A stretch of 64,000 bases of DNA from NCBI GenBank assembly GCA_012295275.1, contig CM022665.1, forward strand, positions 22,878,001 through 22,942,000. The letters are read 5' to 3'. Position numbers and translations under genes: made by a program. This document shows positions 24,101 to 64,000 of this stretch, piece by piece. A model generated the notes under the pieces. It saw only the letters and a program-made list of their open reading frames with translations. It was not told the origin of the DNA and did no database searches. Source of the DNA: Chrysomallon squamiferum. Its lineage: Eukaryota > Animalia > Mollusca. Numbering within the stretch: position 1 is the first letter of the stretch; every line of letters begins with the position of its first letter.

Positions 24101-24828
24101 CGGGGACACACATGCTTTGAAGGAAATGAAATAATGTATGAACGTGCGAAGAGAAATAAAACGAATTTCAAGAATGGAAATGAAAATTAACACTAGCAAT
24201 GAAAACGCAGAAAGCCGTTTCATTATAAACATTTTAATATCACAGTTTTAGTTTCAGTGACGTCTATTTTGAATCAAGCTGCGTCAGATTTGTTTTGTCC
24301 TTCTTATCTGATTTCAACATATTTATTTTGTGCGGATGTAATTTCAATTGCGTAATTGCTTTAAGAACCATTATCCTTGTACAGCAGGAAAAAGCCCATC
24401 AGCTTACAGCTCGATTTCTAACATCGCCTCCTTCCACTGATTCTGTGTGCATGGATAGTTTTCTTGAAAGTCCTCTTGAATTTATTTTGATTTTTGGTTT
24501 GAAAGTAAAAGTTACTCATTCATTTTGTTATTTGTGTTTAGCCAAGCTTCTAAATTGCAGTAATTTAATTTTTCGTTCTAAATCTAAATTAAATTTATGC
24601 TGAGATGAATGTCTTTTTAACAAATCTCGCAAACAGTTGATAAATTGGATAAGACATTGAGATATTGCATGCAGTGGTAACGAATGATTATATAAATAAT
24701 CGACGATGTTTATTTTATAAAGATTATCTTGTCTACTAGTTTTAATATTTAGTTAGAGTTTCAGGAATTGGTAACTGCATTTGTGTGAATGTTTTACTTT
24801 ACTTTCTTCATTATTTTGTGTTTTCAGC

Positions 24829-24843
24829 ATGAGACTCCTCTGA
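24829..24843 (+). promoter_or_regulatory. 4-codon uORF (MRLL*) at exon base +2, ending 12 nt before the gene A ATG
   Basis: cag|c ATG AGA CTC CTC TGA ccagccttgctg ATG; same layout in the paralog. Confidence 0.7.
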
Positions 24844-24855
24844 CCAGCCTTGCTG

Positions 24856-25208
24856 ATGCTGACCACGCCGTTTCCGTATATCTTTGACCTGCTGATGGCA
24901 GAGTTGAAGCTCGATCCTATCCTCCAGGCGTTTTGGGAAAGATTTCCTTGCCCTCCGCCATGGAACACGGGACTTCTAGAGAAAGTCAACTGGACAAGCT
25001 GCATGGCTCCAGGCATAGGCAGACAGGTGAAATTACTTATGGTGGACAAGTGTAAATATGACATCGAGTTTGAAAGCGGTGGGGCGCTAGACAGTGGCGA
25101 GAGGATGACTGCAGAGACCTGCACGACTCCTTGTCAGGTTATGATAGCACTGGCTGGTCTTCTCGTTCTCATCGCTGTAATGACAGTGGTTGTCTTCTTC
25201 AAATTCAG
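24856..25208 (+). CDS. Gene A, first coding exon of an uncharacterised single-pass membrane protein (ectodomain + TM helix); exon begins at 24828
   Basis: Polypyrimidine tract + ttttcag acceptor ending 24827; ORF MLTTPFPYIFDLLMAELKLDPILQAFWERFPCPPPW...VMIALAGLLVLIAVMTVVVFFKFR; phase-2 donor AG|GTGAGA after 25208; 34/56 ungapped aa identity with the paralogous exon at 62473-62837. Start could alternatively be the conserved MAE Met at 24895. Confidence 0.9.
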
Positions 25209-28200
25209 GTGAGAATTACATTTTTCCGCATTTGAATTTTAATATCACACTGCGTTCAGAATATTGAATTTTAGTAGTAGTTCGGGTTGTATTAGGAAAT
25301 AAAAAAAATATTCAAATAAAACTGTTTTCCCCTGATAAAGAAATGTAAAGGTTTTAATGTAATTGGTTCAGCTGACAACAAAGACTGTGTCAACTGAGCT
25401 ATATTCATAATTAAACATGCTATAAACCACCGCTGGGTGCAATTAAAAAACATTCAATAAGTTCCATGTTCTAGCAAATGGATTTTTAAAAAGTATTTCC
25501 ATAAATAATGGGACAAAAACTGCAGTTTCTAAAAGGTCAAAACTGTTAATAATTTGCAGTTGTGTCAATGTATTGTTCTTGAGAGTCATTATGGGGAAAA
25601 AATTGACACAATCTGATTATGAAATTAACAGTAACAGTCTGTTATTGTGTTTCACATAGTCATTGTCGCGCTCTTAATAAAGCTATGACGAGCACTTGAA
25701 TGACCATGTGGGAAAAGCAAAAAAGAGAGAAAAAAAGAAGACTGACACTAGGATTGAAGTCAGCTGTTTTGAACATCATTGTGACAGACAGTCGCGACAA
25801 TGAAGAGAAGAACAAATACATTTTCTTTAGCCTGCTTTGATCCCGTCAGTGGTAGAACAGTGAAGGACTTCACATTGGACAAGACAAAGTAATGACATGC
25901 GAAATGCGACACTTCACGAGCTTTCGATTTCTAAGCATCGAGTGGAATGTACCTGTCACTTTCCATGATTTTTTCTCTCGCACTCTTCCCAGCTTGGATT
26001 ATCTCGAGCATCTATTCACGACATGCCCTTGATTGATCCCAGATCCACGCAGACACTTTTAACTAGGTCCAGAGTAGCCAGATGAGCTGTCGTGGATAAA
26101 GTTTGATTAACGGACAACGCGCCGCCGCACGGGAGTTCAGCTTGGTGAATTATGCATAAAGGCTATGGTCTTATGGCAGTGATGGAGATCTCCATGTTGA
26201 TATAGGATTCTGTTTAGGGTGGGTCGAGGACATGAGTGTTGTTATGGAAAGTGGATAAAAACTACGTGTCTGAGATGAAACCCTTTATTCCACCCACCTC
26301 CCTCTTTTTGGTAATTTTGTGGCACAGTTATCCCGGAAACAAAAACAACAAAAAAAAAAAAAAAAAACAAGACAAATTAGCTGCAGACTACATTTCTTTC
26401 CTTTCTTTTTTTTTAAATTTATAATTGCAACATATAAAAAACACAACACACTAATAGTAACAAAACAGTAGACTACATAAATCTATGTTACACGTGTAAT
26501 TTAGAAAGAAAATGTGACAGTGACAAATACGTGTTAATTTAATTGGATTTTAAACGGAAGCACACTTTCATTGATATTTACCAGATAATCTAATGCTTCA
26601 CTTTCTGTTTTCTTCTTTACATATGAGCTAATTTAAGATAAATAAATAATTTTACCACTTAAAAAAAACAAAAAAAAAAAAAAAAAAAAAAAAAAAAAAA
26701 AAAAAAGAAAGAAAAACAACATGGAAGAGAAAAACTTAAAGAAGAGAAACAGAAATGTAAGGTTAAAATAACATGGAACATGCTTCTTAGTTAATTTACT
26801 TAATGTTCAGCCGACATAGGAACGATTCGTGTGATATACAAAACTGTTAATAAAAACCTTTTAGTGTTTGTATAATTTGTTAAAACTATGTATGTTGATT
26901 ATTAATTACCTTACTTTTGTTTTAATATATATCATCTGATCTGTATCTCGCGATGATTTGCTATAAGACGATCATATAAAAAAACATACTTAGAATACAA
27001 ATATTAGTCTTCAAAATCTAACCTCTGCCCTCAAGAAGAATAGAATGAGCACAAACATTCGCATGTGCAGATTAATGCAAACAAATCTTTCCACATCTCT
27101 CGTTGTGAAGCTCTTGTTATTACATCCCTGGAGCCTTTTAGTCTTGTTTAAGTACATAGATAACCAGAGTATGGACAGACAGACGCACTGGAGGGTGTAA
27201 TTATCATTGTTGGCACTATTATAATTATAGATATTGACATACGGCTGGACCAGGCCAAAGTGTCACCTTGAGTTCATCCCAACAGTTTACTCTGTCAATA
27301 TCGATACAAATCCGCTATGATAATATTACTAGAGGCAAAGTTTGCTTTCATGTCGGCGACAAGACTTCACGAATTGGACGTGCAGTGGTGTAATGAATTG
27401 ATAGTTCATACATGCTGGAAGTAGCTGGAATAATATGTTTCAATTATACAGTTGACGTTAGGTATTAGAGTTCACGCTTCGCACGAACACCGGCGTAATA
27501 AAATGTTGGTTTAAAAGACAGAACGTGCAATTAGTGCATGAGTAATTTTGACACAAGACGAAGGATTTTTAACTGTCGTTTTTTTTTTTTTTTTTTGTTG
27601 GCTTTAAATGTTAGACTGCACACTGAAACAGTTTTAATTATTACAAGCCAATAGTAAAATAAATAAATAAATATAATGAGAGAGAAAAAAAAAATATATA
27701 AAATTAAAAACCATTAATAAGAGAGAGAAAAAAAAGAAGTCCCACAAATAAGCAAACAAAAATAAGAAATAATAATTTGACGTAAACGCATATTTCCGGT
27801 GTTTACCTGAAAGAAACGTAAATAATGTCGTAACTATAACATAATTATGTTTCAGTGAGGCATAATTAGCGATTTTTTCTTTCTTGTTTATGATTTCCAA
27901 ATGGTGCGTTAATGATTTGAAACCAGAATATTCACATATGGGATGTCTACCAATATAAACAAACGCTATTTTCTCGTGCTGGAAGTAACAGGAATCTTCA
28001 GAATGTGTAGACGTATGTTTCAATATGCGCTGAACGAAGACAATGACGTCCACGTGTTTTGCACACATCGGTGTTCTCGGCTATTAGTTTACACACAGCA
28101 AGTTTCTCTGAAATGTCAAATAAATTCCTTGTATCACATGTCTCTACATGTTTCTTATTACGGAAGTGTTTTTAAAATAATTATATAATATAAAAAAGAA

Positions 28201-62466: not shown

Positions 62467-62472
62467 ACTCAC

Positions 62473-62837
62473 CTGCAACAAAAGTAGATGAGCACTGCTG
62501 TGAAACACACAGACACCAACAAACAGGCCGTAACAACCATAACTTTACAGGAAAAGTCACACGGGTCTGAATCCATCTCTTCGCCAACGTCGTCACCCCC
62601 ATCAAAGACGCCATCACCGTCGAAGTCAGCTTTACATTTATCAACCATAAACATTTTTAACTGCTGCCCCACACTCTCGCCAACACACCCAGTCCAGTTG
62701 ACCTTGTCCAACAGGCTGGGCTTCCATGGTGGAGGACATGGAAAATTCTTCCAAAATGATTTCAGTAGTGGATCAAGATGTTCTTCAGCCATCGACACAA
62801 GATGGTCAAAACTTGGAAGAAACGTCGATGTCGTCAT
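62473..62837 (-). CDS. Gene B, first coding exon, paralog of gene A (ectodomain + TM helix + CC); exon begins at 62864
   Basis: Minus-strand acceptor ggtttcag (AG at 62866-62865); ORF MTTSTFLPSFDHLVSMAEEHLDPLLKSFWKNFPCPPPW...VMVVTACLLVSVCFTAVLIYFCCR; phase-2 donor AG|GTGAGT after 62473, at the same position and phase as in gene A. Confidence 0.9.
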
Positions 62838-62848
62838 TGGATTTCAGT

Positions 62849-62863
62849 TCACTTCGACTCCAT
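62849..62863 (-). promoter_or_regulatory. 4-codon uORF (MESK*) at exon base +2, ending 11 nt before the gene B ATG
   Basis: cag|a ATG GAG TCG AAG TGA actgaaatcca ATG on the minus strand. Confidence 0.7.
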
Positions 62864-64000
62864 TCTGAAACCAATAAAACGGTACATTAACTTCGGATAT
62901 GATCGACTTCCAAGGACTGTGGAAAATTAACGTCTAATTGGAGTTTGTTTCTCTCATCTAAAAATTAAGCTACAAAGGAAAATTTAAGCATTAGTTTGCT
63001 TCTGCCATCTGAAATAAAATTATATTAACGAAAAAAAAATGTTTAATTTTTTTTTTCAGCAGGTTTCCTAATTACGTAGGATCCATAAAAATGCCAATCC
63101 GCTAAGACTGACCTATAAGAAAAATATACAGGAATTTTTTAAGATGTATTGCGCTTTTATGTGAATATCACTCCTACACCATAATCTGTATCAGATCAAT
63201 AAGCGCTGCTTTACATTTAATATCTTAAACTACATTAAAAATAATTGTCCTAGTTCATATTTCAAATAACAGTTAATTGAAAATGCAGTGGAATTTTGGG
63301 TCTAAATCACATTTCGTTGACAAATCGTAGATCAGTTTCTTTTACGAATATCGGATAACGCATTTGTAAAGGACATTGCTCAGATTCACTTGTACTTAAT
63401 TAAAATAATTAAGCTTATAAACTCAGATCGTTCCATGTTGTACTAGGATAATCTGAATCCCATAACATAAAATAACAATATCGGACTTCATCTATGCGCT
63501 GTTCGTCATCACTTTCTAATAAAAGACAAAAAGATAATGAATTCCAGTTGAACATGATCCATTCTGAAATCATAGAACAACAGACACATTAATAGTTTTT
63601 TTCTTCTTCTCATTAACAAACGTTTCTTTATGAATTTGTATTAACGAGGTTTGGAAAATGATGACTGCAGTTTGCTTTAGTATGTTATTCAACACGACTT
63701 TATTTGCGAATTAATAATGAAATTTGGGGATTTTCATCATTTGCTGTAAATGATTAATTCGTTTCGGCTGGTTAATAATAATAATAATAATAATAATAAC
63801 AACAACAATAACATCTTTAAATTGGCTGGAATTCACTGATAAAATAAAAAATCCTTTTTTATCACAGACATATATAAATACAACAGGTTTTTTTTTTTTT
63901 TTTGTTATAGAAATCTTGTACTAAGTATATCATTATTTTAAATTTAAAAAAAAAAAAAAAAAAAAAAAAAAAAAAAGGATATCAGTCAGCCAGTCATGGC

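What the first reader, a model, noticed from the sequence alone, without database searches (positions are those of the whole stretch)
24828..62864. Convergent paralog pair defining an unrecognised family of signal-peptide-less single-pass membrane proteins
Seen: two genes with three coding exons each, on opposite strands, stops ~28 kb apart, with identical intron positions and phases (phase 2 in the Arg codon right after the TM helix, then phase 0). Introns show no evident similarity and differ in size (5173/477 vs 1480/542 nt), yet a 56-aa ungapped block is 34/56 identical. Codon differences in FPCPPPW are third-position only (TTT CCT TGC CCT CCG CCA TGG vs TTT CCA TGT CCT CCA CCA TGG). Inference: an old inverted duplication with both copies under purifying selection. 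The layout (small ectodomain, one TM, disordered tail with Tyr motifs, no catalytic domain) resembles transmembrane adaptor/co-receptor proteins such as LAT/PAG-type TRAPs or Commissureless, but I recognise no homology to them.
Basis: partly seen in the sequence, partly recalled or inferred. Interest (0 to 1): 0.8.

Follow-up and report, generated by a model that had tools for sequence, protein, structure and literature searches.

The report
Unnamed mollusc membrane adaptor-like protein family
Two tail-to-tail genes, likely from a snail, encode members of an unnamed family of predicted single-pass membrane proteins found across molluscs, which likely hold a small sugar-bearing domain outside the cell and would pass signals inward through a conserved tyrosine docking site; no function has been tested.

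Summary
Two convergent genes (A +, B -) have three coding exons each, intron phases 2 and 0, unrelated introns and a 34/56 identical block with saturated synonymous sites. Gene A's two junctions appear in RNA contigs of 3 of 4 runs. Gene B was not tested with RNA, but is 71% identical to a Gigantopelta aegis protein. That orthologue shows the window's B stop is probably premature, from a frameshift near 59,690. The pair belongs to a multi-copy family found in gastropods, bivalves, a chiton and Octopus. Members are annotated as uncharacterised (one is mislabelled). I found no Pfam, PDB-sequence or fold match and no paper by accession. Conserved features: a ~50-residue predicted three-helix domain with FPCPPPW, an N-glycosylation sequon (38 of 42), one TM helix followed by basic residues, and tail motifs YE[YST]I (25 of 31) and PALHPxYF. 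PY motifs occur at chance level, so it is not Commissureless-like. Best reading: a leaderless, N-out phosphotyrosine docking co-receptor or adaptor, working like LIME/LAT/PAG but with a folded ectodomain and no homology to them. Real and unnamed; function inferred only.

The parts
24828..25208 (+). Gene A first coding exon: 28 nt of 5' UTR (4-codon upstream ORF ending in an in-frame stop), ATG at 24856, ectodomain and TM helix
   Evidence: Acceptor and donor in sequence; RNA contigs match 24827-25027 and 25032-25205 without differences
24904..25053 (+). Gene A conserved ectodomain core (residues 17-66): DP..FW..FPCPPPW..LL..VNWT..C; predicted three helices; sequon N45 at 24988-24996
   Evidence: Invariant W, P, C, P, P, C in 46 aligned members; AlphaFold2 block pLDDT 84-92 over model residues 11-50; sequon 38 of 42
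25138..25194 (+). Gene A predicted transmembrane helix (about residues 95-113), preceded by CxxxC and followed by basic residues
   Evidence: Kyte-Doolittle 19-mer mean 3.03, net +3 after it; helix 91-117 in the model
30382..30508 (+). Gene A exon 2, with the juxtamembrane SPSHQTAL and SCHYAASPV (30467-30490) motifs
   Evidence: Junctions in RNA contigs of 3 of 4 runs; CHY-type motif in 19 of 31 tails versus 1.0 in shuffles
30986..31696 (+). Gene A exon 3, low-complexity tail: NYRRL, IYEYI (31223-31234), CxC, TLPVR, C-terminal RPIPALHPHYF (PALHPHYF at 31646-31669); protein 396 aa
   Evidence: RNA contig to 31649; 54% identity over the full length to Haliotis XP_046567100; both RNA-seen coding differences are synonymous
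62473..62864 (-). Gene B first coding exon: 27 nt 5' UTR with out-of-frame 4-codon upstream ORF and an in-frame stop, ATG at 62837, ectodomain and TM helix ending YFCCR
   Evidence: Sequence; 76% identity to Gigantopelta aegis LOC121371463 residues 1-120
60863..60992 (-). Gene B exon 2, with SSCHYASAPV
   Evidence: GT..AG junctions; 69% identity to the Gigantopelta orthologue; not tested with RNA
59664..60320 (-). Gene B exon 3 as assembled, with PYEYI (60125-60114) and CTC; 383-aa protein if the assembled stop is real
   Evidence: 66% identity to orthologue residues 167-397
59551..59682 (-). Conserved continuation of gene B in another reading frame (…RRSVNLLPAQYL, aligning with the family's C-terminal motif): a frameshift in the window copy near 59,690, either assembly error or allele
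   Evidence: 27/43 identity to orthologue residues 399-441, E 2e-17

Best explanation
The two genes are old paralogues in an unnamed molluscan family of predicted single-pass membrane proteins that likely insert without a signal peptide, N-terminus outside, and likely act as phosphotyrosine docking co-receptors or adaptors. Shown: gene structure, splicing of A, family breadth, conserved motifs. Predicted: one TM helix and a ~50-residue three-helix ectodomain carrying FPCPPPW. Inferred: the ectodomain is glycosylated and disulfide-held and binds a partner receptor or ligand; a Src-family-type kinase phosphorylates YE[YST]I, which recruits SH2 proteins; the CHYASAP and C-terminal PALHPxYF motifs are further docking or sorting sites; the proteins have no catalytic activity of their own.
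For: N-out topology: an N-x-S/T sequon sits at one position in 38 of 42 ectodomains (shuffles 1.2, max 5), with x varying (W25 A5 T3 F3 S3) and +2 held to T or S; net positive charge follows the TM in 41 of 42 members; Cys are invariant in the N-terminal domain. No leader: an in-frame stop lies upstream of the ATG in the same exon in A and B, matched by RNA contigs for A; the best 11-residue hydrophobicity in the first 30 residues is 1.39 (A) and 0.85 (B), against 2.5-3.9 for 19-residue TM windows. Docking tail: YE[YST][IL] in 25 of 31 tails versus 0.4 in shuffles (max 3); C-terminal HPxYF-type motif 19 of 31 versus 0; CHY-type motif 19 of 31 versus 1.0. These motifs are kept in tails that otherwise barely align. 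LIME binds Lck SH2 through YEAI and YESI (PMC2194117, passages). Strong constraint: 371-372 of 374 residues identical among four Haliotis species, tail included.
Against: No experiment, expression pattern or partner is known. Related sequences share motifs by descent, so the shuffle counts show non-chance, not function. Short Tyr motifs can equally be endocytic or sorting signals. Generic Yxx[LIV] is not enriched (29 of 31 versus 25.5). The TRAP juxtamembrane CxxC is absent (0 of 31), though a cytosolic-side Cys is present in 25 of 42 (absent in gene A). SignalP was not available: caenogastropod and heterobranch N-termini are mildly hydrophobic (1.67-1.87) and the chiton model has a hydrophobic stretch (2.72), so an atypical leader is not excluded there. 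Four bivalve-type members lack the sequon; 6 of 31 tails lack the YE[YST]I motif.
Confidence: 0.45

Rival explanations
1. A sorting or trafficking adaptor that escorts a client receptor to endosomes, working like Commissureless/PRRG4/Ndfip; the tail tyrosines would be endocytic signals.
For: Same overall layout (single TM, no catalytic domain; Comm's lack of a leader is recalled, not from a call). YxxL/I and HPxYF resemble endocytic motifs (recalled).
Against: PY motifs, which Comm needs (PMC12101832 and PMC5578492, search listing and abstract starts only), occur in 6 of 31 tails versus 5.2 in shuffles and in neither A nor B. No Comm or PRRG Pfam hit was listed.
Confidence: 0.15
2. A cortical cell-shape or actin organiser in epithelia (for example mantle, foot or ciliated cells), working like Drosophila Shavenoid.
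For: The two best ESM Atlas feature hits for the Haliotis protein are arthropod clusters carrying PF23328 Sha_B_N (scores 0.86 and 0.85; family on 54% and 27% of members).
Against: Scores under 0.9 are leads only (shuffled proteins reach 0.8 a third of the time). Those clusters are 940-1482 aa. No Sha_B_N hit in Pfam scans of members (presence of that model in this Pfam copy not confirmed).
Confidence: 0.12
3. A membrane anchor or auxiliary subunit that holds an ectoenzyme or channel through its proline-rich ectodomain loop, working like PRiMA.
For: An invariant Pro-rich, Cys-flanked extracellular motif before a single TM; second Atlas hit for ectodomain plus TM is a PRIMA1 cluster (score 0.77).
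Against: 0.77 is within the chance range. Only four prolines, set in a predicted folded domain, where PRiMA has a long polyproline run and a signal peptide (recalled). It does not account for the long conserved Tyr-motif tail.
Confidence: 0.1
4. A variable immune recognition receptor like the snail PTC1/PTC2 polymorphic transmembrane clusters.
For: Clustered, multi-copy, single-TM molluscan genes of unknown function; weak TMEM154 TM-segment hits in 7 of 39 members (best E 0.011), a label also given to PTC genes (PMC10635097, passages).
Against: PTC genes are described as hyper-diverse, with FN3 or lectin domains in some. This family is about 99% identical across four Haliotis species and both coding differences seen in RNA are synonymous. 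The TMEM154 hits are far under the curated cut-off.
Confidence: 0.05

Closest known systems
Vertebrate transmembrane adaptor proteins (TRAPs: LIME1, LAT, PAG/Cbp, NTAL, SIT, TRIM)
   Same: Leaderless, one TM helix, long non-catalytic tail with Tyr motifs; the conserved VYESI/IYEYI/VYETI matches LIME's ENVYESI Lck-SH2 site (PMC2194117).
   Different: Ectodomain ~95 aa with a conserved predicted folded, sequon-bearing, Cys-containing core (LIME: 9 aa); no juxtamembrane CxxC (0 of 31); no sequence homology (best SCIMP E 0.027, GAPT E 0.076, far below cut-offs); named members are all molluscan.
Commissureless / PRRG4 / Ndfip
   Same: Single-pass non-catalytic protein of similar size and, from recall, similar leaderless layout (Comm).
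   Different: PY motifs at chance level (6 of 31 versus 5.2); no Pfam match listed.
Type III TNF receptors (BCMA, BAFF-R, TACI, XEDAR, Drosophila Wengen) - recalled, no call
   Same: Leaderless N-out receptors with a small Cys-containing ectodomain.
   Different: Their Cys-rich domains are beta-strand based with several disulfides (recalled); this ectodomain is predicted all-helical and no such chain appeared in the fold searches (inconclusive).
Uncharacterised database members: Haliotis XP_046567100 / LOC124275564, Gigantopelta aegis LOC121371463, Lottia LOTGIDRAFT_159938/159941/159942/232670, Patella SNE40_009921/009922, Aplysia LOC101861567/LOC101849484, Liolophura LOC135467817, Octopus A0A0L8I3Y9
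   Same: True homologues: A groups with Haliotis (97/91), B with Gigantopelta (100/100).
   Different: None has a described function or family name in the sources seen, apart from one apparent mislabel in Biomphalaria pfeifferi.

Membership tests
TRAPs (LIME/LAT/PAG) | No signal peptide | tested here: met
   In-frame stop upstream of the ATG in A and B; weak N-terminal hydrophobicity 1.39 and 0.85. Hydropathy proxy only; SignalP not run.
TRAPs (LIME/LAT/PAG) | Very short extracellular region (9 aa in LIME, PMC2194117) | tested here: not met
   About 95 aa before the TM, with a conserved ~50-aa predicted domain
TRAPs (LIME/LAT/PAG) | Single TM and long tail with tyrosine-based motifs | tested here: met
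   One hydrophobic segment in 41 of 42 members; YE[YST][IL] in 25 of 31 tails
TRAPs (LIME/LAT/PAG) | Juxtamembrane CxxC palmitoylation motif | tested here: not met
   CxxC in 0 of 31; a single or paired Cys near the cytosolic TM end in 25 of 42, none in gene A
TRAPs (LIME/LAT/PAG) | Sequence homology to a TRAP profile | tested here: not met
   No Pfam TRAP model near its cut-off; best SCIMP E 0.027, GAPT E 0.076
TRAPs (LIME/LAT/PAG) | Phosphorylation by Src/Syk kinases and SH2 recruitment | not testable with these tools
   Needs experiment
Commissureless/PRRG/Ndfip | Conserved cytoplasmic PY (PPxY/LPxY) motifs | tested here: not met
   6 of 31 tails versus 5.2 in shuffles; none in A or B
Shavenoid | Sha_B_N (PF23328) domain | tested here: inconclusive
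   Atlas lead at 0.86; no such Pfam hit listed, but presence of the model in this copy was not confirmed
PRiMA | Long proline-rich attachment domain and PF16101 match (definition recalled) | tested here: not met
   Only FPCPPPW (4 Pro); no PF16101 hit listed; Atlas 0.77 is chance level
Type III TNF receptors | TNFR cysteine-rich domain fold (recalled) | tested here: inconclusive
   Predicted ectodomain is helical; best Z 4.0, none >= 5 among 48,161 chains; absence from the list does not exclude
Snail PTC1/PTC2 immune clusters | Hyper-polymorphism | tested here: inconclusive
   Very low divergence across four Haliotis species argues against; no population data or Biomphalaria map position examined

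The most novel reading that the evidence does not exclude
This is an ancient, mollusc-wide class of leaderless receptor with an ectodomain fold not yet represented in the PDB, which joins ligand binding and TRAP-style phosphotyrosine scaffolding in one chain: an invertebrate counterpart, reached independently, of the vertebrate immune-cell adaptor principle, kept as a gene cluster since early in mollusc or gastropod history.
Probability: 0.25. Interest if true: 0.65.

Novelty: new variant of a known kind. Interest (0 to 1): 0.42.

Why it matters
It defines a conserved, unnamed cell-surface protein family across four mollusc classes with an unassigned small domain and a short list of testable motifs (sequon, FPCPPPW, YE[YST]I, PALHPxYF). 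Near-invariance among abalone species suggests an important role. If the adaptor reading is right, TRAP-like signalling scaffolds, described mainly from vertebrate leukocytes, have an independent invertebrate equivalent with its own ectodomain. It deserves a new Pfam entry in any case. Interest is moderate: lineage-restricted uncharacterised membrane families are common in molluscs, the members already sit in public annotations, and nothing yet ties the family to a phenotype or an open question.

Tried and rejected
No whole genome is held for this window, so copy number and flanking synteny were not examined. Gene B has no read evidence here; its junctions and frameshift rest on the orthologue. 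Profile search of the 5.8-billion set with alignment A1 covered only proteins of 1345-3840 aa and found none of 1672 candidates; it says nothing on normal-length relatives, so a deep profile search outside Mollusca remains undone. Pfam: nothing near a cut-off for 4 exon products, 39 aligned members or 15 selected members. PDB sequences: best E 0.33. Foldseek: no hit with E <= 0.001 for either model in PDB or for the ectodomain model in BFVD. VIA-align: the first run was dominated by the TM helix (best Z 4.1); ectodomain alone best Z 4.0, rmsd 5.0, 64 aligned, none >= 5; this does not prove a new fold. Homodimer prediction: no verdict (score 0.01, alignment not used). ESM Atlas: leads under 0.9 only (Sha_B_N, PRIMA1, LIME1 at 0.76, an unnamed 111-aa arthropod cluster at 0.85). 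Literature: 0 papers for 12 accession or locus terms, for four Lottia model numbers with 'Lottia', for four motif strings and for a descriptive query; one search listed 6 papers, none on this family by title or abstract start. Supplements are not searched by these calls and subscription journals are mostly missing, so members may appear in expression tables I could not see. No third family member in the window by six-frame HMM search. No Rfam hit. 23 other hand-picked open frames gave no Pfam hit at cut-off. Metagenome scan: 142 pattern matches, 3 loci passed, of which L002 lacks the rest of the domain and the TM and looks spurious. P0060 (repetitive) was dropped from all analyses as a likely false hit, 1 of the 35. 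AU tests did not reject a duplication confined to the A/B/Gigantopelta lineage (p 0.073) nor B grouping with Lottia 232670/Patella 9921 (p 0.27) (LG+G4). Earlier scan findings: nothing returned.
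Full report
Observation. Gene A (+) has coding exons 24856-25208, 30382-30508 and 30986-31696 (396 aa). Gene B (-) has 62837-62473, 60992-60863 and 60320-59664 (383 aa as assembled). Introns are 5173/477 and 1480/542 nt, all GT..AG, phases 2 then 0; the stops are 27,968 nt apart; the 56-aa block is 34/56 identical; the introns share only 11-14 nt matches at E >= 0.11. 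In that block pS is 0.97 (saturated) and pN 0.22, so dN/dS is far below 1 although dS cannot be estimated.

Expression. Assembled contigs of four RNA runs (one study) were laid on 20,000-33,000. Both gene A junctions appear in 3 of 4 runs, with skips of 5173 and 477 nt. The two coding differences seen in exon 3 are synonymous. One contig has 360 further letters 5' of the acceptor at 24828, and no joint to them was listed within the stretch laid, so a non-coding exon probably lies further upstream. Contigs cannot show strand or level. Gene B was not tested with reads.

Corrections to the gene models. Both first coding exons open at an acceptor 28 (A) or 27 (B) nt before the ATG, with an in-frame stop between, so no upstream exon using this acceptor can add a leader. 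Gene B is 71% identical over 399 columns to Gigantopelta aegis LOC121371463 across both junctions. That protein continues for 43 residues that match another frame of the window at 59682-59554 (27/43, E 2e-17), and its end aligns with the family's C-terminal motif. The window copy therefore carries a frameshift near 59,690. Because the shifted part is still conserved, an assembly error or a very recent allele is the likely cause (inference).

Family. Exon 1 found a Haliotis rubra protein. The full-length Haliotis protein found 20 proteins; 16 of 20 carry names, all gastropods. A phmmer search of 1.84 billion representatives with exon 1 gave 35 hits at E <= 0.001; one repetitive hit was dropped. 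Of 20 of these clusters looked up, 16 name an organism and all 16 are molluscs: gastropods, the bivalves Solemya and Pinctada, the chiton Liolophura and Octopus bimaculoides. All are called uncharacterised or hypothetical except a Biomphalaria pfeifferi entry labelled 'inactive histone-lysine N-methyltransferase 2E', which has no Pfam support. Two metagenome contigs (L001, L003) hold divergent members with a similar exon layout, of unknown animal origin. No non-mollusc member was named, but the search that could best have found one covered the wrong length range. In trees A groups with Haliotis (96/62; 97/91) and B with Gigantopelta (100/100 in both). The duplication thus predates the split from Gigantopelta and probably that from abalones, though a lineage-limited duplication was not rejected (AU p 0.073). 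The window's organism is likely a gastropod related to Gigantopelta (inference from gene B).

Anatomy. The N-terminal region has invariant W, P, C, P, P and a later C. AlphaFold2 predicts a three-helix module of about 50 residues (block pLDDT 84-92 over model residues 11-50, pTM 0.53), then a variable linker, a near-invariant CxxxC and one TM helix. No fold match stands out. An N-x-S/T sequon sits at one place in 38 of 42 members, with x free and +2 fixed to T or S (shuffles 1.2), and basic residues follow the TM in 41 of 42. Both point to N-out topology. N-terminal hydrophobicity is low in A and B (1.39, 0.85), borderline in some gastropods (up to 1.87) and high in the chiton model (2.72); SignalP was not available. 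The tails (175-581 aa) align poorly except for islands: a CHY-type motif (19 of 31; shuffles 1.0), YE[YST][IL] (25 of 31; 0.4), CxC (22 of 31; 6.7) and a C-terminal HPxYF-type motif (19 of 31; 0). PY motifs (6 of 31; 5.2) and generic Yxx[LIV] (29 of 31; 25.5) are at chance level. The 31 are members with full tails; 11 fragments were used only for ectodomain and TM counts. Members are related, so these counts show conservation, not independent events. Four Haliotis species differ at 2-3 of 374 residues.

Mechanism. Shown: genes, splicing of A, family, motifs. Predicted: TM helix and helical ectodomain. Inferred: a leaderless N-out protein whose glycosylated ectodomain binds a partner and whose tail is phosphorylated at YE[YST]I to dock SH2 proteins (confidence 0.45). 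The closest functional parallel is LIME, described as leaderless, with a 9-aa ectodomain, a CxxC site and Lck-SH2 binding at YEAI and YESI (PMC2194117, passages seen; general TRAP role in PMC7655920, passages seen). Rivals: Comm-like trafficking adaptor (0.15; PY motifs absent; PMC12101832 and PMC5578492 seen as listing and abstract start only), Shavenoid-like cortex organiser (0.12; Atlas lead 0.86; papers seen as listing only), PRiMA-like anchor (0.10; Atlas 0.77), PTC-like immune receptor (0.05; PMC10635097, passages seen). The remaining probability is for roles not listed.

Membership and novelty. It works like a TRAP in layout but fails three TRAP tests (short ectodomain, CxxC, homology), so it is not filed as one. 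It fails the Commissureless PY test. No Pfam family, PDB sequence or fold covers it. Five paper searches by accession, model number, motif or description found nothing; supplements and most subscription papers were outside them. Verdict: a real, unnamed pan-molluscan family, a new variant of a known architecture, with function inferred from motifs only. Interest 0.42; boldest reading (a new leaderless receptor class with a new ectodomain fold and TRAP-style tail) probability 0.25, interest 0.65.

Noticed in passing
window 24829-24843 (+) and 62863-62849 (-): Both first coding exons carry an ATG at their second base that opens a 4-codon upstream ORF ending in TGA (in frame with the main ORF in A, out of frame in B); acceptor-to-start distances are 28 and 27 nt, and Haliotis isoforms show 9 codons at the same place. 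Possibly a conserved translational control. L003 has a similar upstream ATG, L001 does not.
   Followed up: partly
window about 59,690 (-): Frameshift in gene B relative to the Gigantopelta orthologue; assembly error or allele unresolved.
   Followed up: partly
P0024 (Biomphalaria pfeifferi): Family member labelled 'inactive histone-lysine N-methyltransferase 2E' by its source; no Pfam support, likely a mislabel.
   Followed up: partly
P0049, P0052, P0057, P0059, P0062, P0068, L001 7426-7785, L003 3669-4028: Bivalve-type, chiton and metagenome members have extra cysteines just upstream of the conserved core; several lack the sequon or the second core Cys. A possible alternative disulfide pattern.
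   Followed up: no
L001 and L003: Two divergent members from marine metagenome contigs on a long branch among bivalve sequences; could be the first non-mollusc members, taxon unknown.
   Followed up: partly
window about 4,000-5,000: Tandem repeat that is open in three frames with strong C skew; looks like a minisatellite, no Pfam hit in the frame scanned.
   Followed up: partly
window 23760-23915 and 26393-26420: Short repeat elements shared with many unrelated RNA contigs (high depth, loose ends); dispersed repeats, not exons of gene A.
   Followed up: no
window 32161-33000 (+ side of gene A stop): RNA contig cover continues past the gene A stop, with a cluster of AATAAA sites at 32,592-32,961; probably a 1-1.3 kb 3' UTR.
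   Followed up: partly
ESM Atlas: Best feature hit for ectodomain plus TM is an unnamed 111-aa arthropod cluster (0.85, 117 shared features); could not be retrieved for alignment.
   Followed up: no
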